Part shown: positions 1 to 5,710 of the stretch, piece after piece
Layout: each line of letters opens with the position of its first letter
Position numbering within the stretch: position 1 is the first letter of the stretch
DNA from: a virus
Strand: one strand, 5' to 3'
Virus genome (UHGV): UHGV-0853564
DNA: 43,023 bases
Program-made: the position numbers and the translations under genes
The notes under the pieces: model-generated
What the model was told of the DNA's origin: nothing
Seen by the model: the letters and a program-made list of their open reading frames with translations, nothing else
The model's database searches: none

Positions 1-1824
1 AAACGCTTTATACGCGGTGGACGCCTCGCCGAATGCTGTTTTAGCATTAGCTGCCATATCACCAAAAGAGCTACCTAAAGCCTCGGCTCGCTTCGTGGCA
101 TACTGCTCATTGATAGCGTTAAGCGCCGCCTGATACTGTTCCTCGTTAATCAGCCCCTGTTCACGGTATTTATCGGCTACCGCCAGTTTCTGCTGTTCCT
201 GGATGTCGAGAAGCTCAAGTTCGGCGGCATTCTGACCCATAATCTGAGCCATGAAGTCGTCGCCTTTCTGCTGCTTTTCCCGCCGGTCTTTTCTTTTCTT
301 ATCCAGTTCTTCCTGTCTGGCCTGCTCAGCTGTGAGCATAATTTGAGTTTTGGCGTTTTCATACTGCTGCTGGCTTATCGTTCCGGCGCGGTTGAACTCC
401 TCCAGTTTCGCCAGTTTCTGTTCTTCTGCCGCCGTGATACGAGAAATTTCGTCTCCGGTTGTACGGTCAACCGTAGCGAGGAAATCTTCCGCCGCTTTTT
501 TCTGACGTTGTGCTGCCGTTTCTTCACGTTTGGCCTGCGCCGCCAGACGTTTCTCGTTTGATTTAGCCTCGCGGTCTGCCTTCGCTTTTTCGGTAGCGTC
601 GATGCGGGCGATGTCTTGCTGCGCTTCCGTGTCACGGGCGGCGTTATATGCGGCTATTTGTTCTTTGGTTACAGCTTCACGTTTAGCGAACGCTTGTTTA
701 TCCATCTCGGCTTGTGCCCGGATACGCTCACGGTCGCTTAAGATGGCGATTTGCTGATTCTTGACGATAGCTTCGTTCTGTTCCTGGAATCTCTGTGTGG
801 TTGAGTTGACGTTACGACCGAGATTCTTTTGAGCCTCCGCCGCGGCGTTTGCCGACTTCTCCGCGTTCTCCAGTGCCGTTGCGTTCTTGTTGGCATTGTC
901 AGTAAGGCGGATAAGTTCCGGGTTCAACTGTTTCGTGTTGCCTAGCCAGTCGGTGAACACATCGGCGATGCGGCGGGCGTTCTCCGCGGTCGGCTCTTTG
1001 TTAAACGCACTCTGCGCCGCTATCATCTCCAGCGCCTGGTCGCGGTTAACCCCGAACTTACTGCTAAGCTCCGCAATATTCTGCGCCAGCATGTTGACGC
1101 CTACGATATTACCCTCGTAAGTGCCGCCGAGTTTTTCTAACGTGTCGCCTACATCAGCGCCCTTAGATACCAATGCATCGTACTGGCTAATCGCCGATGC
1201 CGTGGATGCTTTCCACGTTTCCCACGATTCTGCGTCCTCACGCACGGCTTTAGCTGTTTGCTGTGCGATAAGGTCCGCGTTAGCCTTAGCCAAAGCAAGT
1301 TGAGTCTCCGCCGCTTCTCGGCTTATTTGGGTAAGCTGGATGAGGCCATCTGTCAGTTCGAGAGAGCCAGATGCCGTTTGCTGGAAGGTATCTTTTAACT
1401 GTTTCTGTGCGGCTTCGAGGTCTTTTGAACTGCCTTCTGCTTCGGTTAGCGATTTGTACAGGACACCGCCAATTGCTGATGCAAGAGCAATTACAGCCCC
1501 AAGCACCGCGCCACCGGGGCCGAAAGCACCCGCAAGCTGCGAACCTTGCTGACCGATTGCTACGAATGCAGACGTACCGGATTGCAACTGGACTACCATG
1601 TCCTGCACCTGGAAACCAACCTGACCGGCTGCATTGCGGAACTTGGCAAAACCGTCGGACGCTGCTTTAGAGGTGGCGGTGTTAACTTTATTAACATCCG
1701 GAGTTAGTTTGTTTACAGATGTGTCCGCCCGGTCTGCAGATGCCGCCATAGCGTCAAGCTGTTTGGCAGCGACGTCAGCCCCTTCAGTTTTTACTCTGGC
1801 GATTAGGGAAGCCGTATCAGCCAT
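1..1824 (-). CDS. tail tape measure protein, N-terminal 608 codons (continues in frame into 43023..42538)
   Basis: ATG at 1824..1822 with GAGGG-type RBS upstream; frame open to position 1; Ala/Gly-rich hydrophobic segment plus long Q/A/E/K-rich helical region; directly follows chaperone pair. Missing from ORF track because it is cut by the window edge. Confidence 0.8.
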   Translation of the reverse strand, partial: MADTASLIARVKTEGADVAAKQLDAMAASADRADTSVNKLTPDVNKVNTATSKAASDGFAKFRNAAGQVGFQVQDMVVQLQSGTSAFVAIGQQGSQLAGAFGPGGAVLGAVIALASAIGGVLYKSLTEAEGSSKDLEAAQKQLKDTFQQTASGSLELTDGLIQLTQISREAAETQLALAKANADLIAQQTAKAVREDAESWETWKASTASAISQYDALVSKGADVGDTLEKLGGTYEGNIVGVNMLAQNIAELSSKFGVNRDQALEMIAAQSAFNKEPTAENARRIADVFTDWLGNTKQLNPELIRLTDNANKNATALENAEKSANAAAEAQKNLGRNVNSTTQRFQEQNEAIVKNQQIAILSDRERIRAQAEMDKQAFAKREAVTKEQIAAYNAARDTEAQQDIARIDATEKAKADREAKSNEKRLAAQAKREETAAQRQKKAAEDFLATVDRTTGDEISRITAAEEQKLAKLEEFNRAGTISQQQYENAKTQIMLTAEQARQEELDKKRKDRREKQQKGDDFMAQIMGQNAAELELLDIQEQQKLAVADKYREQGLINEEQYQAALNAINEQYATKRAEALGSSFGDMAANAKTAFGEASTAYKAF

Positions 1825-2203
1825 CTTCTCTGCCCTCAAATATTCCGTCTAAGCCCATGATAACCTCGGCTTCGAACAAACTTATGCCGTAACCGGCGAC
1901 ATCGCGAAACGCTGCCAAATCTTGCCATTTGAGCGCATCGCGCGGGATTATAACGATAGTATCATCTGTTTCGCGCTGTAGGAATTTAATGGCACGGTAT
2001 TTCTCGAACACGTCGATAAGAGAAACGGGGCATTCTGGCCCCGTCGCTTCTTTCATCTGCGGTTCTTTAATCACGCCCATTGCAATCAAAGCCGCCTGGT
2101 GGCCCGCCGCAATGTCATCGAATTGCTTACGTTTGTGGCGGTCGACAAAGCACCATTGCGCAAATTCATACAGCGCTTTTACTTTTCCGAGAGTCTCTCC
2201 CGG
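1817..2203 (-). CDS. tail assembly chaperone -1 frame extension (gpT-like part of a G-T fusion)
   Basis: -1 frame relative to the 2179..2595 ORF is open from a TAG at ~2206..2204 down to the stop at 1817 and overlaps the tape measure start; classic G/G-T arrangement. Confidence 0.5.
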   Translation of the reverse strand, partial: PGETLGKVKALYEFAQWCFVDRHKRKQFDDIAAGHQAALIAMGVIKEPQMKEATGPECPVSLIDVFEKYRAIKFLQRETDDTIVIIPRDALKWQDLAAFRDVAGYGISLFEAEVIMGLDGIFEGREDG

Positions 2204-2595
2204 CTATCGGTGTGGTGCTTAACTACGGCTTCTGCCAACCCACTGTACTGGTCAAACAGGTTGGCCAGCGCCTCTTTGCTGAATGGTTCGTCGAATGACC
2301 AACCGGTGACGATTTCCACGGCGAGCTGCTTGTTCAGGTCCATAACCCTCCAGCCCTTCTCATCGTTATAGCGCGCCCAGTTATTAAGCGCCTCGCACTC
2401 TTTATCTAACGGAGCAAGTTCTTCCGTAAGGCGTCGAATTGCCGTTGTGTAGGCACGGCCTGCACGAACGCCAGCGTCACAATCGGGGCCGATGACCTGC
2501 AACCATTCGCCGGAGTCTTTACCACTCGGCAGAAGGATAGGCATTTTAGTGCCAGCAGCGTGGCGGTCGGCAAAATAAAAATCAGAAAGTTTCAT
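2179..2595 (-). CDS. tail assembly chaperone (gpG-like)
   Basis: 138-aa ORF immediately upstream of tape measure gene, ending in Lys codon AAG inside a GGAAAAG stretch. Confidence 0.65.
   Translation of the reverse strand: MKLSDFYFADRHAAGTKMPILLPSGKDSGEWLQVIGPDCDAGVRAGRAYTTAIRRLTEELAPLDKECEALNNWARYNDEKGWRVMDLNKQLAVEIVTGWSFDEPFSKEALANLFDQYSGLAEAVVKHHTDSRERLSEK
2182..2188 (-). other. candidate -1 ribosomal slippery site G GAA AAG at end of chaperone gene
   Basis: Minus-strand ...CTC TCG GAA AAG TAA; shifting -1 here gives GGA AAA GTA AAA GCG... which continues open to 1817. Confidence 0.4.
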
Positions 2596-2702
2596 TCTTT
2601 AATCCTTTGGTTAAGAGGTTACAGGTTAAGGTTGACGCGCCAGACGGGAACCACCCGCTTTTCGTGTGCGACACTAGGCGCAAACTTATTCTAGCACACT
2701 AC

Positions 2703-2734
2703 TTGCACACCCCAATATAATAGGGTACTATTCA
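2703..2734 (+). promoter_or_regulatory. promoter-like element TTGCAC-N17-TACTAT with internal TATAAT and AATAG-N4-CTATT dyad
   Basis: ttgcacaccccaatataatagggtactattca, ~25 nt upstream of ATG 2760; near-identical copies at 11659..11690 and (reverse) 22995..23026. Confidence 0.5.
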
Positions 2735-2759
2735 CCTGTAACCTACTGAGGAAACAATT

Positions 2760-3086
2760 ATGCGTAAATTAGTATTAGCTCTGGGGTTTATGTCTTTTGC
2801 TACTTTTGGGGGCCCGTGCGAACAGGTATTTAGTGAATCTGTTCTTATGGCTTCTGGTGTGCTCGATAAAGCCGACCCTACTATTGTAAAGGCATTTAAG
2901 GACTCTACAGTCCGTGAATGTGAGGCTGCCGTAGATGTCGGTAAATCAGGCCTACCTCCGCAGGCCGTAACATATACGGTAATACGTTCGGTAGAGAAAA
3001 ACGGGGACGCGTTTTACAGCCTACTGACAGCCACCCGTCTGCAAATGGTGATGACTGGCTGGGCGATAGGCGCGGAAAGTAAATAG
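2760..3086 (+). CDS. small secreted protein (N-terminal signal peptide), moron gene
   Basis: GAGGA RBS; N-terminus MRKLVLALGFMSFATFGG is signal-peptide-like; opposite strand to flanking tail genes; AT-richer than surroundings. Confidence 0.6.
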   Translation: MRKLVLALGFMSFATFGGPCEQVFSESVLMASGVLDKADPTIVKAFKDSTVRECEAAVDVGKSGLPPQAVTYTVIRSVEKNGDAFYSLLTATRLQMVMTGWAIGAESK

Positions 3087-3151
3087 TCGCCTTTATTTAA
3101 AGGAATCCACTGTGGTTAAATAGGACAAATCCTACACACGAGGACGTAAGC

Positions 3152-4282
3152 ATGGCCCGGAAGAAAATAACCGACGAACAGTTGCAGGAAGAATTGAACG
3201 CCGGTATGAAGAATATCGACATCGCCCGTAAATACGGCGTCTCAGACCGAGTTATTCGTATCCGTAAAGCGAAGCTGGCGAAGAAAGGCGTAGGTCACGG
3301 TCGTGACGTTAGCCATCTTGTGCCGGACGGCTACAAGATTAAAGGAACGTCGTCACTGGTGGACGAGTTCGGCAACACTAAGTTGCAATGGGTTAAGACC
3401 GACACCGACGCCGAACGTCAGGTCGAGTTGATGAAAGCCGTAATCGAGGGCATGAAGTCAGATATTACGCCAGTTGCGCCTGTTAAAGCCTCCCGCACCA
3501 AACGTGATGACAAGCTACTCAATCTTTACACGGTATCTGATTTCCATCTCGGTATGCTGGCCTGGGCCGACGAGAGCGGCGACGACTGGGACATGAAGAT
3601 TGCAGAGGACCTGTTCTCTCGATGGTTCGACGCAGCGTTTCAGAAAGCGCCGGACGCGGGAACGGGTGTTATTAACCTGCTAGGTGACCTTGCGCACTTC
3701 GACAGTCTGGATGCAGTTACGCCAGCGAGTGGTCACGTTCTTGACGCCGATACCCGCTACCAGAAACTTGTACGCTACATGATTCGCATGGTGCGACGTG
3801 TTGTTGATATGGCGCTGGTTAAGCATAAAAATGTTCGCTTGCTTATCGTGCAAGGGAACCACGACGAAAGCGGAATGATTTGGTTAGCTGAAATGTTCAG
3901 TACGCTATACGACAACGAGCCGCGTGTATTCGTCGATACGTCGCCGGATGTTTACAAGATGGTGCAACACGGCAAAACGACATTGTTCTTTACCCACGGA
4001 CATAAAGCGCGCTTCGACGCTATCGAACCGGTTATGATCGCCAAGTTCCGCAAAGCGTTTGGTGAGAGCGTTTACAGCTACGCCCACGTAGGCCACCTAC
4101 ACCATCAGAAGATTGTAGAAAGCCGTAATATGATTGTTGAGCAACACCGCACCTTAGCGGCGAAAGACGCCTACGCCTCTCGCGGTGGATGGATGTCGGG
4201 CCGGAGTGCAAATGTAATTACTTATAGCGCCGAATATGGCGAGGTTGCGCGTTTAACTATTTCACCGGAGATGCTGGGATGA
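3152..4282 (+). CDS. HTH domain fused to calcineurin-like metallophosphoesterase (SbcD/Mre11-like motif set)
   Basis: 376 aa; N-terminal HTH-like segment (NIDIARKYGVSDRVIRIRKAK); motifs SDFHLG, LLGDLAHFD, VQGNHDE, THGH, VGHLHH match metallophosphoesterase motifs I-VI; GAGGA RBS. Confidence 0.8.
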   Translation: MARKKITDEQLQEELNAGMKNIDIARKYGVSDRVIRIRKAKLAKKGVGHGRDVSHLVPDGYKIKGTSSLVDEFGNTKLQWVKTDTDAERQVELMKAVIEGMKSDITPVAPVKASRTKRDDKLLNLYTVSDFHLGMLAWADESGDDWDMKIAEDLFSRWFDAAFQKAPDAGTGVINLLGDLAHFDSLDAVTPASGHVLDADTRYQKLVRYMIRMVRRVVDMALVKHKNVRLLIVQGNHDESGMIWLAEMFSTLYDNEPRVFVDTSPDVYKMVQHGKTTLFFTHGHKARFDAIEPVMIAKFRKAFGESVYSYAHVGHLHHQKIVESRNMIVEQHRTLAAKDAYASRGGWMSGRSANVITYSAEYGEVARLTISPEMLG

Positions 4283-4509
4283 CTTCAAAATACAACCGCA
4301 CAATGACAAATACTCACGGCAGCACTATGACGGTAGACGTTTACGATGTGCTACGCGCCTTCGACATCCGCGACCCGGCATTACAGCACGCATTGAAGAA
4401 GCTGCTGTGTATGGGTCTTCGTGGGCACAAGGACACCGGAACCGACTTAGCGGAAGCAATTGAAAGTCTGGAGAAGTTACGGGAGTATCGAAGCAACATC
4501 GATGAATAA
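4279..4509 (+). CDS. hypothetical 76-aa protein, translationally coupled to the phosphoesterase gene
   Basis: ATGA stop-start overlap with upstream gene; followed by terminator hairpin. Confidence 0.5.
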   Translation: MTSKYNRTMTNTHGSTMTVDVYDVLRAFDIRDPALQHALKKLLCMGLRGHKDTGTDLAEAIESLEKLREYRSNIDE

Positions 4510-4537: not shown

Positions 4538-5710
4538 TTATGCGTAGGTGATACGCTGGATAACGATAGACGACTGGTACTGGTTGCCTGTGGACTGCCC
4601 TTCTATACTTTGGGTAATTGATTCAGGGCCAGATATTTCTGGCGTAACCGCCGTAAGCTCTGCGCGTTTCAAACTGAAAGACATAGCCCCGTTTACCCCC
4701 GCCAGAATAGAGTTAATCTCTACCTGCTGTTCGTTGATAAACTTCTGAATCATAGCCATGTCATACAGCTTACCGGAGATGGAGAAGGTGTTAGCTGCGC
4801 GGCTACGTTCCACAAACGCAACGTTAGAGTTGCCGAGTTCGAACTGTGCGGACGCGCTGTTGTCGTTGGTGATGGTAAGGCTATCGCAACGCAACGGGGT
4901 AGAACCGTCGAACACAGAAACGTCGACCGAGGAGAACGGCTCATCAGTAAACGTAACAGAGGAGAAGTCAGAACCAGACGGCGGCGTCGCGAGAATCTCC
5001 TGGCTGCGCCCGATGAACGGGAAGCTGCCCGTTACCATCGCGTTAACGGCCTGCTCCACGGTAAAACCGGAAACTTCCACACCTTTGGTCAGTGTGTACG
5101 CGTCGGCCCCACCGCACTGGCCTTTGTACCAGGTGAGGATAGAGAACGTCTTACACGCGTTACCAGTTTCCAGTTTATCGCCGGTTTTAGCGTCGGTTGT
5201 TACGGTCTCGGTGGTCAGAGTATGTTGGATCCCAGCACCGGTGACAGCAGTCGCACTTACCTCGGTTACGATAAACGGTTTAGCGTTATCGCCCGTTAAG
5301 TCGGTAAACGCAATCAGGTCGCCTACTTCAACGCCATCCGTAATGAAGCTACCGTCGGCACGAGTGAACGTCTTGCCCGCCGGTGCGACGGTAATCGACA
5401 GCCCCGACAGAGAAACACCGGATTGCCACGTAGAGCCTAAAGCCCCCGCTAACCAGTCGTCCTGGCTTTTCGAACTAAGCTCGATAGCATATTCTCCGCT
5501 AACCTGCTTGTTACCGGTACGGATGGACGTAGTTTCACGGCTGCCGTCCAGTTCGTTGGAGGTCAGCGTGTCGCGGGTAATAGCGGGAACGCCACCTGTG
5601 TTGCGCAACGGCGACCATACCGGGTTAGTTGGTGTTACGCCCGGGGTGACTTCCGCCACATAGAATTGCGCGGTAGTCGCGCCCTTAAAAGGAGTTGTAG
5701 CCATATTCAC
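4538..5710 (-). CDS. putative major tail protein
   Basis: 390-aa ORF at the position of the tail tube gene (after neck genes, before chaperones), followed by strong terminator; assignment by synteny only. Confidence 0.5.
   Translation of the reverse strand: MNMATTPFKGATTAQFYVAEVTPGVTPTNPVWSPLRNTGGVPAITRDTLTSNELDGSRETTSIRTGNKQVSGEYAIELSSKSQDDWLAGALGSTWQSGVSLSGLSITVAPAGKTFTRADGSFITDGVEVGDLIAFTDLTGDNAKPFIVTEVSATAVTGAGIQHTLTTETVTTDAKTGDKLETGNACKTFSILTWYKGQCGGADAYTLTKGVEVSGFTVEQAVNAMVTGSFPFIGRSQEILATPPSGSDFSSVTFTDEPFSSVDVSVFDGSTPLRCDSLTITNDNSASAQFELGNSNVAFVERSRAANTFSISGKLYDMAMIQKFINEQQVEINSILAGVNGAMSFSLKRAELTAVTPEISGPESITQSIEGQSTGNQYQSSIVIQRITYA

What the first reader, a model, noticed from the sequence alone, without database searches (positions are those of the whole stretch)
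2182..2203. Candidate -1 programmed frameshift joining the two tail chaperone ORFs
The G-like ORF ends ...CTC TCG GAA AAG TAA. The -1 frame is open only from ~2203 and runs through GGA AAA GTA AAA... to the stop at 1817, overlapping the tape measure start. This matches the conserved G/G-T mechanism of tailed phages, but GGAAAAG is not a canonical XXXYYYZ heptamer, so the exact slip site is uncertain.
Basis: partly seen in the sequence, partly recalled or inferred. Interest (0 to 1): 0.45.

Follow-up and report, generated by a model that had tools for sequence, protein, structure and literature searches.

The report
Tail-chaperone frameshift with unusual slip signal
This is the expected programmed -1 ribosomal frameshift that fuses the two tail-assembly chaperone reading frames of a Kagunavirus phage, but it uses a minimal A_AAG slip site next to the stop codon plus a conserved long-range RNA helix instead of the textbook seven-base slippery sequence.

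Summary
On the minus strand a 138-codon chaperone gene (2595..2179) ends GAA AAG TAA. The -1 frame is open from 2203 to TGA 1819..1817 and overlaps the tape-measure ATG (1824).

- Across 13 lineages the -1 extension shows coding-type wobble variation from the first codon after the stop.
- It has no conserved start codon.
- Distant relatives with the same two Pfam domains carry canonical heptamers.

The slip site is resolved as the tetranucleotide A_AAG (2185..2182) directly followed by UAA or UAG. Of 47 invariant-residue columns in the whole gene, the only invariant codons lie at this junction.

The conserved block five bases downstream (GCGYUGU) is the 5' arm of a covarying long-range helix (2176..2161 with 1988..1973). 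It closes a 200-nt structured domain (z = -4.5) and is well placed to stimulate slippage.

The frameshift itself is not new. K1ind1, fFiEco02 and fTaEco01 records annotate the joined product and PHROG 15027 models it. Many other records call a separate gene from CTG/TTG, and one paper reports no canonical slippery sequence.

The parts
2179..2595 (-). Chaperone gene 'G': 138 codons plus TAA. Its AAGGA ribosome-binding site lies at 2607..2603.
   Evidence: ORF list, frames, Pfam Phage_TAC_4 at 9.9e-9, PHROG 15027 positions 1-138. The exact protein sits in a 320-member cluster named tail assembly chaperone [phage K1H].
2182..2203 (-).
   Evidence: The -1-frame stop TAG lies at 2206..2204 and the G stop at 2181..2179.
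2182..2185 (-). Slip site A_AAG. tRNA-Lys re-pairs from AAG (2184..2182) to AAA (2185..2183). The heptamer context is G_GAA_AAG (2188..2182).
   Evidence: AAG is the last sense codon in 13/13 lineages (background AAG share 0.44). The preceding wobble base is A in 13/13 across the GAA, GTA, GCA, GGA and TCA codon families (background 0.09-0.56). K138 is one of only 3 invariant codons among 47 invariant-residue columns.
2179..2181 (-). 0-frame stop UAA directly 3' of the slip codon. It doubles as the second and third bases of Val GUA and the first base of the next codon in the -1 frame.
   Evidence: The stop abuts AAG in all 13 lineages. It is always TAA or TAG and never TGA, although GTG would still encode Val.
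2161..2176 (-). 5' arm of long-range helix S1 (GCGCUGUAUGAAUUUG), starting 5 nt after the slip codon. It contains the near-invariant GCGYUGU block and the CTG that some records use as a start codon.
   Evidence: GCG occurs in 13/13 lineages and CTG/TTG in 13/13 despite free synonymous variation elsewhere. Pairing partner found, covariation, MFE, RNAalifold.
1973..1988 (-). 3' arm of helix S1 (UAAAUUCCUACAGCGC) inside the T frame (K-F-L-Q-R codons). It gives 8 bp, one U.C mismatch, then 7 bp with the 5' arm.
   Evidence: MFE of 2181..1960 closes with exactly this helix: -81.6 kcal/mol, z = -4.48, 0/200 shuffles as good. RNAalifold on 9 clade members recovers columns 6-16 with 199-209. 82% of cells are paired against 21-48% in slid registers, and L013 shows a triple compensatory change. 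The sister clade pairs the same 5' arm with a different site (~T nt 128), with C-G to U-A and other double changes.
1817..2185 (-). The -1 frame 'T' extension (KVKALYEF...EGREDG, stop TGA 1819..1817). The predicted fusion G(1-138)+121 aa is 259 aa.
   Evidence: Pfam Phage_TAC_18 at 1.2e-17, PHROG 15027 positions 138-259, wobble periodicity, no conserved start. 491 of 494 phage records align from residue 1.
2014..2045 (-). GC-rich hairpin (2045..2024) plus U-rich tail (2023..2014) inside the S1-closed domain. It looks like an intrinsic terminator.
   Evidence: Terminator scan. It recurs at the same position in most lineages, even with unrelated peptides. Synonymous-shuffle mean z = -1.0 against about 0 in three control windows. 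Covariation score 0.305 against 0.155+-0.03, 0/500 shuffles as high.
1..1824 (-). Tape measure protein gene (ATG 1824; runs off the window start).
   Evidence: PHROG 1538 tail length tape measure protein, 3e-135. Annotated as such in relatives.

Best explanation
The two ORFs encode a lambda G/GT-type pair of tail assembly chaperones. Most ribosomes translate G (138 aa) and terminate at UAA 2181..2179. A minority slip back one base at A_AAG (2185..2182). The single E. coli tRNA-Lys (anticodon mnm5s2UUU) detaches from AAG and re-pairs perfectly with AAA, the next codon read is GUA, and translation continues in the -1 frame to TGA 1819..1817. The product is a 259-aa G-T fusion (...RERLSEK-VKALYEF...).

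Only the Lys tRNA can re-pair well. The upstream codon varies between lineages (GAA, GUA, GCA, GGA, UCA). This is therefore a tetranucleotide (Z_ZZN) site, not a tandem-slip heptamer.

Two conserved features probably raise efficiency. The first is the 0-frame stop codon immediately 3' of the slip codon, which is slow to decode. The second is a 15-bp long-range helix whose 5' arm begins 5 nt after AAG. That places it at the ribosome's mRNA entry channel when AAG occupies the A site. The helix closes a ~200-nt highly structured domain.

By analogy with lambda, the G part would bind the tape measure protein and the T part would recruit the tail tube protein.

Shown here: the frames, homology, coding signature, absence of a start codon, nucleotide-level constraint at the junction, and covariation of the helix. 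Inferred: that slippage actually occurs, its efficiency, the stimulatory role of the stop and the helix, and the protein functions.
For: - Frames and overlap verified.
- G is Phage_TAC_4 and the -1 ORF is Phage_TAC_18. PHROG 15027, a 259-position fusion profile, matches G at 1-138 and T at 138-259, placing the join at K138.
- Gene order is tube (Phage_tube_2, 7e-38), G, T, tape measure.
- The T frame shows wobble periodicity from the first codon after the stop.
- No start codon is conserved in the first 35 T codons; the first start is at codon 48-95 in three lineages.
- In 13 lineages: AAG 13/13, preceding wobble A 13/13 across five codon families, stop adjacent 13/13.
- In an unbiased scan, only 3 of 47 invariant-residue columns have invariant codons, and all three are at the junction.
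- Distant TAC_4/TAC_18 relatives carry canonical heptamers in frame within the overlap.
- Long-range helix: covariation in two clades with different 3' arms, recovered by unguided MFE (z = -4.48) and by RNAalifold.
- No phage tRNA gene is present to alter Lys decoding.
- Literature: A_AAG is the most shift-prone tetramer in E. coli, about 0.15% alone and up to 5.6% with a 3' stimulator (PMC4066793). A_CGA_AAG (B. subtilis cdd) and G_CGA_AAG (IS1222) are precedents, and E. coli has one tRNA-Lys (PMC5009743). Ribosomes paused at stops undergo P-site re-pairing events (PMC6815119).
- Joined CDSs are annotated in K1ind1, fFiEco02 and fTaEco01.
Against: - There is no experimental evidence for the fusion protein in this phage group. 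The searches found none, and the exact 259-aa sequence is not in the protein collection.
- A_AAG alone is barely above background in E. coli, so the model depends on stimulators whose role is only inferred.
- The helix's duplex energy is not exceptional compared with other 18-mers of the same mRNA: 1-47 of ~190 windows do as well. Its support rests on position, covariation and whole-domain stability.
- The covariation counts used a structure derived from the same sequences, and the sequences are related, so the shuffle controls overstate significance.
- The helix and the CTG/TTG codon inside it are also compatible with translational coupling or reinitiation.
- The upstream SD-like GGGAG in the window (2201..2197) is not conserved in close relatives.
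Confidence: 0.8

Rival explanations
1. T is a separate protein made by independent initiation or termination-reinitiation at the CTG (2173..2171), six bases after the G stop. Bas76, Shashou, Jersey, SETP7 and Eta are annotated this way. The long-range helix would then act as a translational-coupling device that exposes this start only when a ribosome finishing G unwinds it.
For: The codon is CTG or TTG in 13/13 lineages although Leu has six codons. Several records annotate a CDS from it; in Shashou it is TTG with an AGGA 12 nt upstream. The codon lies inside the 5' arm of the long-range helix, the arrangement seen in classical coupling.
Against: - CTG (12 of 13 lineages) is a very poor bacterial initiator. 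No lineage has ATG or GTG there, even though compensatory changes at exactly this base pair are tolerated (C-G to U-A in Jersey).
- No SD is conserved: the preceding bases are GGA, GGT or GCA.
- It does not explain the invariant AAG, the invariant wobble A before it across five codon families, or the invariant stop adjacency. These bases lie outside the helix.
- Distant homologues have canonical heptamers and no nearby start.
- The CTG/TTG restriction is explained by base pairing in the helix.
Confidence: 0.08
2. T starts internally at TTG 2089 or ATG 2080 (the ORF listing; Henuyfy11N Gp15 is annotated from the ATG), giving an 87-90-aa protein. The stretch between the G stop and that start would be untranslated.
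For: These are the first standard start codons in the frame. The Pfam Phage_TAC_18 model begins at about that residue. 87-aa proteins are found on contigs of many relatives.
Against: The 32-35 codons upstream are conserved as protein (KVxALYxFAxW...KFDxIxxGHEAALIAMG) with wobble-position variation. Met36 is Ile in 6 of 43 sequences, and three lineages have no start codon before codon 48. No SD precedes it.
Confidence: 0.03
3. The frameshift is real, but the long-range helix and the internal hairpin serve something other than stimulating slippage. Possibilities are mRNA stability, transcription attenuation that sets the ratio of G to tape measure protein, or occlusion of spurious initiation. 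On this view the slip relies only on A_AAG plus the adjacent stop.
For: The internal hairpin is followed by a U-rich tract and scores as terminator-like. The T region is mostly ribosome-free, so structures can form there. Lambda's G_GGA_AAG works without a known structure (own knowledge). The Jersey/Shashou lineage keeps the helix but largely lacks the hairpin and U tract.
Against: The 5-nt spacing from slip site to helix is fixed in all lineages and matches known -1 stimulators. The 5' arm position is kept while the 3' arm has moved between two sites. A_AAG needs a 3' stimulator to reach percent-level efficiency in E. coli.
Confidence: 0.3
4. The fusion arises from transcriptional slippage (RNA polymerase stuttering on the A run) rather than ribosomal slippage.
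For: A short A run (AAAA, 2186..2183) is present.
Against: The run is only 4 A, and only 3 in lineages with GTAAAG, GCAAAG or TCAAAG. That is well below the length I recall being needed for productive polymerase slippage. The AAG-specific conservation fits tRNA-Lys behaviour.
Confidence: 0.01

Closest known systems
Phage lambda G/GT tail assembly chaperones (Levin, Hendrix & Casjens 1993; Xu, Hendrix & Duda 2004, 2013, 2014; cited in PMC5009743)
   Same: Two overlapping ORFs lie just upstream of the tape-measure gene. The second is in the -1 frame, has no start of its own, and is expressed as a C-terminal extension of the first. Slippage involves tRNA-Lys at an A_AAG.
   Different: Lambda uses a full heptamer, G_GGA_AAG, several codons before the G stop, and no stimulatory structure is known for it. 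Here only the A_AAG tetramer is conserved, it is the last sense codon, and a covarying long-range helix follows it. The proteins belong to other Pfam families (TAC_4 and TAC_18). The tube gene is separated from G by opposite-strand genes.
The same feature annotated in close relatives: K1ind1 ORF21A/ORF21B (NC_041897.1), fFiEco02 FE2_025/026 (MT711523.1), fTaEco01 TE1_021/022 (MT711527.1); PHROG 15027
   Same: Same genus and orthologous genes. The fFiEco02 T part is 98% identical. Joined CDSs of 259-260 codons have the same junction sequence.
   Different: These are annotation-level calls, and no analysis of the signals turned up in my searches. Other records of the same group (Bas76, Shashou, Jersey, SETP7, Eta, Henuyfy11N) annotate separate genes. 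The Shashou paper states that there is no canonical slippery sequence (PMC6776780).
Tetranucleotide A_AAG -1 sites: IS1222 G_CGA_AAG and Bacillus subtilis cdd A_CGA_AAG (PMC5009743); systematic Z_ZZN analysis (PMC4066793)
   Same: The site is a single-tRNA slip of tRNA-Lys from AAG to AAA, with a preceding codon that cannot re-pair. Its efficiency depends on flanking stimulators.
   Different: As I recall, cdd relies on an upstream Shine-Dalgarno-like stimulator. Here no upstream SD is conserved, and the candidate stimulators are an abutting stop codon and a long-range 3' helix.
IS911 / IS3 -1 frameshift signals (A_AAA_AAG with a downstream three-way junction or pseudoknot)
   Same: A multi-helix structured domain has its closing helix starting a few nucleotides 3' of an AAG-ending slip site in an E. 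coli element.
   Different: Those use full heptamers and more compact structures. Here the closing helix spans about 110 nt (site-A clade) or about 190 nt (site-B clade, including this window), and the 3' arm differs between clades.

Membership tests
G/GT-type tail assembly chaperone frameshift (Xu, Hendrix & Duda 2004) | Two ORFs located between the major tail/tube gene and the tape-measure gene. | tested here: met
   Tube gene at 5710..4538 (Phage_tube_2, 7e-38), G at 2595..2179, T at 2185..1817, tape measure from 1824 (PHROG 1538, 3e-135). One deviation: three or four opposite-strand genes (2760..4509) sit between tube and G.
G/GT-type tail assembly chaperone frameshift (Xu, Hendrix & Duda 2004) | The second ORF overlaps the end of the first in the -1 frame. 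| tested here: met
   G codons start at coordinates with remainder 0 mod 3 and T codons at remainder 1, which is -1 on the minus strand. The -1 frame is open from 2203 and the G stop is at 2181.
G/GT-type tail assembly chaperone frameshift (Xu, Hendrix & Duda 2004) | The second ORF lacks its own start codon and ribosome-binding site, yet is conserved as protein from the overlap onward. | tested here: met
   No start codon or SD is conserved in the first 35 codons; the first start is at codon 48-95 in L016, L028 and L029. Wobble periodicity is 1.38/1.44/0.68 bits.
G/GT-type tail assembly chaperone frameshift (Xu, Hendrix & Duda 2004) | A canonical X_XXY_YYZ slippery heptamer in the overlap. | tested here: not met
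   G_GAA_AAG is not XXXYYYZ. Only one variant (L042, G_GGA_AAG) is canonical. The minimal Z_ZZN motif A_AAG is present and invariant. Distant relatives do have canonical heptamers.
G/GT-type tail assembly chaperone frameshift (Xu, Hendrix & Duda 2004) | The fusion protein is made at a low fixed ratio and is required for tail assembly. | not testable with these tools
   This needs a reporter assay, western blot or mass spectrometry, and phage genetics.
Pfam Phage_TAC_4 (PF08748) and Phage_TAC_18 (PF23812) | Score above the curated gathering threshold. | tested here: met
   G scores 35.9 bits against a cut-off of 21.1. T scores 64.2 bits against 27. The same pair occurs in loci at 30-36% identity.
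PHROG 15027 (fused tail assembly chaperone, 259 positions) | Both halves match collinearly and meet at one position. | tested here: met
   G matches 1-138 at 2.4e-65 and T matches 138-259 at 3.3e-62.
Z_ZZN tetranucleotide -1 frameshift sites with a 3' stimulator (Sharma et al. 2014) | [quoted passage not shown] | tested here: met
   GA[A AAG] lies at 2185..2182 in frame and is invariant in 13 lineages.
Z_ZZN tetranucleotide -1 frameshift sites with a 3' stimulator (Sharma et al. 2014) | A stable RNA structure beginning about 5-9 nt 3' of the motif that raises efficiency. | tested here: inconclusive
   A helix starting 5 nt 3' is supported by covariation, MFE and RNAalifold. Its effect on frameshifting could not be measured. 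Local hairpins within 63 nt were excluded.

The most novel reading that the evidence does not exclude
About 500 Guernseyvirinae-like phages share a previously undescribed recoding cassette. It consists of a bare A_AAG tetranucleotide as the last sense codon, an abutting UAA/UAG, and, 5 nt downstream, the 5' arm of a long-range helix that closes a 110-190-nt structured domain and acts as the frameshift stimulator. The 3' arm of this helix has been relocated between two sites during evolution while the 5' arm stayed fixed. A further possibility is that the terminator-like hairpin inside the domain forms only on mRNAs whose lead ribosome did not shift, which would couple tape-measure transcription to G-T synthesis.
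Probability: 0.45. Interest if true: 0.5.

Novelty: new member of a known kind. Interest (0 to 1): 0.35.

Why it matters
Practically, it settles an annotation inconsistency that affects hundreds of therapeutic-candidate E. coli and Salmonella phage genomes. The gene between the chaperone and the tape measure should be annotated as a joined -1 frameshift product with the slip at A_AAG. It should not be annotated as a separate 'hypothetical protein' starting at CTG or TTG. It also explains why annotators reported 'no canonical slippery sequence'.

For recoding biology, it offers a natural, widely conserved example of a tetranucleotide slip site that abuts a stop codon and is paired with a long-range helix. 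This is a compact system for testing how much a stop codon and a distant-closing helix each contribute to -1 slippage in E. coli.

Frameshift predictors that demand heptamers and local hairpins would miss it.

Tried and rejected
1. **Upstream Shine-Dalgarno-like stimulator.** The window has GGGAG at 2201..2197. Close relatives read CGCGAGAAA there and other lineages have nothing consistent, so I rejected it.

2. **Local downstream hairpin or pseudoknot.**
   - RNAalifold on 117 nt of mixed clades gave -0.1 kcal/mol.
   - The window's 92-nt fold had z = +0.43.
   - Native against synonymous-codon-randomised sequence gave mean z of -0.04 (45 nt) and 0.00 (63 nt).
   - I therefore rejected a local structure. 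The real partner lies 120-190 nt away and differs between clades, which is why these tests missed it.

3. **Tandem slippage on the full heptamer.** The P-site codon varies (GAA, GTA, GCA, GGA, TCA) and cannot re-pair in most lineages, so it is not the conserved mechanism.

4. **Duplex energy as evidence for the long-range helix.** It is not distinctive against other windows of the same mRNA, so I did not rely on it.

5. **Absolute invariance of GCGCTGT.** This held in 43 IMG/VR sequences but is broken in Jersey, SETP7 and Shashou (GCGTTG). Those exceptions turned out to be compensated in the 3' arm.

6. **Solved-structure sequence search of the fusion.** No meaningful hit.

7. **Literature searches.** Searches combining Kagunavirus or Jerseyvirus with frameshift found no experimental study. 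The Jerseyvirinae paper (PMID 25663216) cited in the Shashou record is not held.

8. **A 0-frame ATG at 2169 (28-codon ORF).** It is not in the conserved frame, so I judged it to be chance.

Full report
**Observation**

All relevant genes lie on the minus strand. A 138-codon ORF (2595..2179) ends CTC TCG GAA AAG TAA. The -1 frame has stops at 2221 and 2206..2204 and is then open for 128 codons to TGA 1819..1817. It overlaps by 8 nt the ATG (1824) of a long ORF that runs off the window.

**Identity**

The window is a Kagunavirus-like phage of the Guernseyvirinae. It is about 92% identical in nucleotide sequence to the BASEL phages Bas70-76, fFiEco02, K1H and G AB-2017.
- The upstream ORF is a Phage_TAC_4 tail assembly chaperone.
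- The -1 ORF is Phage_TAC_18.
- The gene at 5710..4538 is a tail tube protein.
- The downstream ORF is the tape measure protein.
- PHROG 15027, a 259-position 'tail assembly chaperone' profile, matches the first ORF over positions 1-138 and the -1 ORF over 138-259. Fused products joined at Lys138 are therefore already in the databases.

**How others annotate it**

| Annotation | Records |
|---|---|
| Joined (frameshifted) CDS | fFiEco02, fTaEco01, RefSeq K1ind1 (ORF21A/21B) |
| Separate CDS starting at the CTG or TTG six bases after the stop | Bas76, Shashou, Jersey, SETP7, Serratia phage Eta |
| Separate CDS starting at an internal ATG | Henuyfy11N |

[quoted passage not shown] No experimental study of this group turned up. 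In all, 494 phage records encode the extension, and 491 of them align from its first residue.

**Is the -1 ORF translated as an extension of G?**

I collected 50 IMG/VR loci (G identity 99% down to 30%) plus named references.
- In 43 unique sequences, the 33 codons after the stop carry 1.38, 1.44 and 0.68 bits at codon positions 1, 2 and 3 of the -1 frame. This is the signature of protein-coding selection, and it begins immediately after the G stop.
- The first 35 residues (KVxALYxFAxW..KFDxIxxGHEAALIAMG) are conserved, but no start codon is.
- The first ATG/GTG/TTG falls at codons 5, 11, 13, 32 or 35 in different lineages, and at 48, 58 and 95 in L016, L029 and L028. No Shine-Dalgarno sequence precedes any of them.
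- Loci at 30-36% identity have the same TAC_4 plus -1-frame TAC_18 pair. They carry canonical heptamers (T_TTT_TTC, A_AAT_TTT) in frame within their overlaps. Frameshifting is therefore ancestral in this chaperone family.

**Where is the slip?**

In all 13 lineages (clustered at 80% identity) three things hold:
- The last sense codon is AAG. The background share of AAG among Lys codons in these genes is 0.44.
- The preceding codon ends in A even though it encodes Glu, Val, Ala, Gly or Ser. The background share of wobble A in those families is 0.56, 0.26, 0.21, 0.09 and 0.26.
- The stop codon follows directly.

An unbiased scan of the whole 259-codon gene found 47 columns with an invariant degenerate residue. 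The codon itself is invariant at only three of them: K138, V139 and A141. L142 is restricted to CTG or TTG. Every other column uses two to six synonyms.

Nucleotide-level selection is therefore confined to NNA_AAG_UAR_NNG_CGY_UG. Because the upstream codon cannot re-pair in most lineages, the conserved motif is the tetranucleotide A_AAG and not a heptamer.

This fits published work:
- Z_ZZN tetramers are the minimal -1 sites, and A_AAG is by far the most shift-prone of them in E. coli.
- E. coli has a single tRNA-Lys.
- A_CGA_AAG (B. subtilis cdd) and G_CGA_AAG (IS1222) are natural precedents (PMC5009743; PMC4066793).
- The phage encodes no tRNA.

**What stimulates the slip?**

Sharma et al. 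found A_AAG alone at about 0.15% and up to 5.6% with a strong 3' structure, so a stimulator is expected here.

Two candidates failed:
- The SD-like GGGAG upstream in the window is not conserved.
- Local downstream folding was negative by three tests.

The near-invariant GCGYUGU block five bases past AAG was at first unexplained. It turned out to be the 5' arm of a long-range helix.
- **Window clade** (also L013, L015, L016/28/29, L018 and Eta). The block pairs with T nucleotides ~198-213, which are window 1988..1973. The pairing is GCGCUGUA/UACAGCGC, one U.C mismatch, then GAAUUUG/UAAAUUC.
- **Sister clade** (K1ind-like, L022, L025, L030, L045, L047, Jersey/SETP7 and Shashou). The same 5' arm pairs with T nucleotides ~126-140.

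Changes are compensated across lineages:

| Lineage | 5' arm | 3' arm |
|---|---|---|
| L013 | UUGAAAU | AUUUCAA |
| Jersey | GCGUUGUUUC | GAAACAACGC |
| Shashou | GCGUUGC | GCAACGC |

Pair counts support both helices:

| Measure | Window clade | Sister clade |
|---|---|---|
| Cells paired | 82% | 68% |
| Cells paired in slid registers | 21-48% | 28-44% |
| Covariation score | 0.112 | 0.225 |
| Score in shuffles | 0.071+-0.010 (1/500 as high) | 0.132+-0.021 (0/500 as high) |
| Pairs with a change on both sides | 3 | 7 |

Unguided folding agrees:
- The MFE fold of 2181..1960 closes with exactly this helix: -81.6 kcal/mol, z = -4.48, with 0 of 200 shuffles folding as well.
- RNAalifold recovers it in both clades.

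Three caveats apply. Duplex energy alone is not distinctive. The tested structure was derived from the same sequences. The sequences are related to one another.

With AAG in the A site, the helix begins at about mRNA position +12, at the entry channel. That is the usual geometry of -1 stimulators, and IS911 and IS3 are the nearest precedents (from my own knowledge of those systems). The abutting stop, always UAA or UAG, may add a pause during which the P-site tRNA-Lys can re-pair (PMC6815119). Its contribution is inferred.

**Rivals**

*Reinitiation at the CTG/TTG inside the 5' arm.* The helix could act as a coupling device, so this is not excluded. It fails on several points:
- It does not explain the A_AAG and stop constraints, which lie outside the helix.
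- It relies on a very weak start codon in 12 of 13 lineages.
- It has no conserved SD.
- It is impossible in the distant relatives.

*Internal initiation at TTG 2089 or ATG 2080.* This is contradicted by the conserved, wobble-varying upstream codons.

*Transcriptional slippage.* This is implausible on a run of three or four A.

**Verdict**

It is a member of a well-known class, and close relatives already annotate it, so it is not novel as such.

What this analysis adds:
- the slip site (A_AAG at 2185..2182, abutting the stop);
- a covariation-supported long-range helix as the likely stimulator;
- a clear recommendation for annotating several hundred related genomes.

All functional statements await a reporter assay or detection of the fusion protein.

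Noticed in passing
window 2045..2014 (minus strand), inside the T reading frame: A GC-rich hairpin (ACGGGGCC-AGAAUG-GCCCCGU) followed by a U-rich tract scores as an intrinsic terminator. It recurs at the same place in most lineages, even where the peptide is unrelated. Three pairs covary (score 0.305 against 0.155 in shuffles, 0/500 as high), and it folds better than synonymous-codon controls (mean z = -1.0). It is weak or absent in Jersey/Shashou, L018 and L028. It could be a partial terminator or 3' stabiliser that sets G in excess over tape measure protein, or simply one helix of the frameshift-stimulating domain.
   Followed up: partly
window 2760..4509 (plus strand), between tube gene 5710..4538 and G 2595: The tail gene module is interrupted by opposite-strand genes: a 108-aa protein (PHROG 14165), a 376-aa metallophosphoesterase/'DNA repair exonuclease' (PHROG 704) with an N-terminal HTH-like stretch, and a 76-aa ORF. 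G-T-tape measure therefore needs its own promoter. A weak sigma-70-like match lies at 2742..2714 on the minus strand.
   Followed up: no
window 2181..2179 and homologous positions in L004-L057: The G stop is TAA or TAG in all 13 lineages (TAG in most) and never TGA, although TGA would keep Val (GTG) in the -1 frame. This may reflect a requirement for RF1-read or slowly decoded stops at the slip site, or it may be shared ancestry.
   Followed up: partly
T codons 98-115 (about window 1892..1840), just upstream of the tape-measure ATG: A second window folds better than synonymous-codon controls (mean z = -0.8; two lineages below -2). There may be structure around the tape-measure ribosome-binding site.
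   Followed up: no
L001 (Bas76) 2827; L054 (Shashou) 14816; L055-L057: Several GenBank and RefSeq records start the second chaperone gene at a CTG, which is a non-standard start, or at a TTG six bases after the G stop. In other relatives the same stretch is 'hypothetical protein' or has no annotation. The annotation of this gene is inconsistent across roughly 500 genomes.
   Followed up: yes
L060 (Klebsiella phage vB_kpnM_D1, PP107912.1, UNVERIFIED): The T extension is broken by a frame change after 76 codons and the homology continues in another frame. This is probably a sequencing or assembly error in an unverified record.
   Followed up: no
L053 1501..1809 region (IMG/VR 3300029989_000226): This distant relative has a run of nine T (GCT TTT TTT TTC), giving two overlapping canonical heptamers, plus a third (T_TTG_GGC) next to the stop. 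These are multiple potential slip sites, or a site for transcriptional slippage.
   Followed up: no
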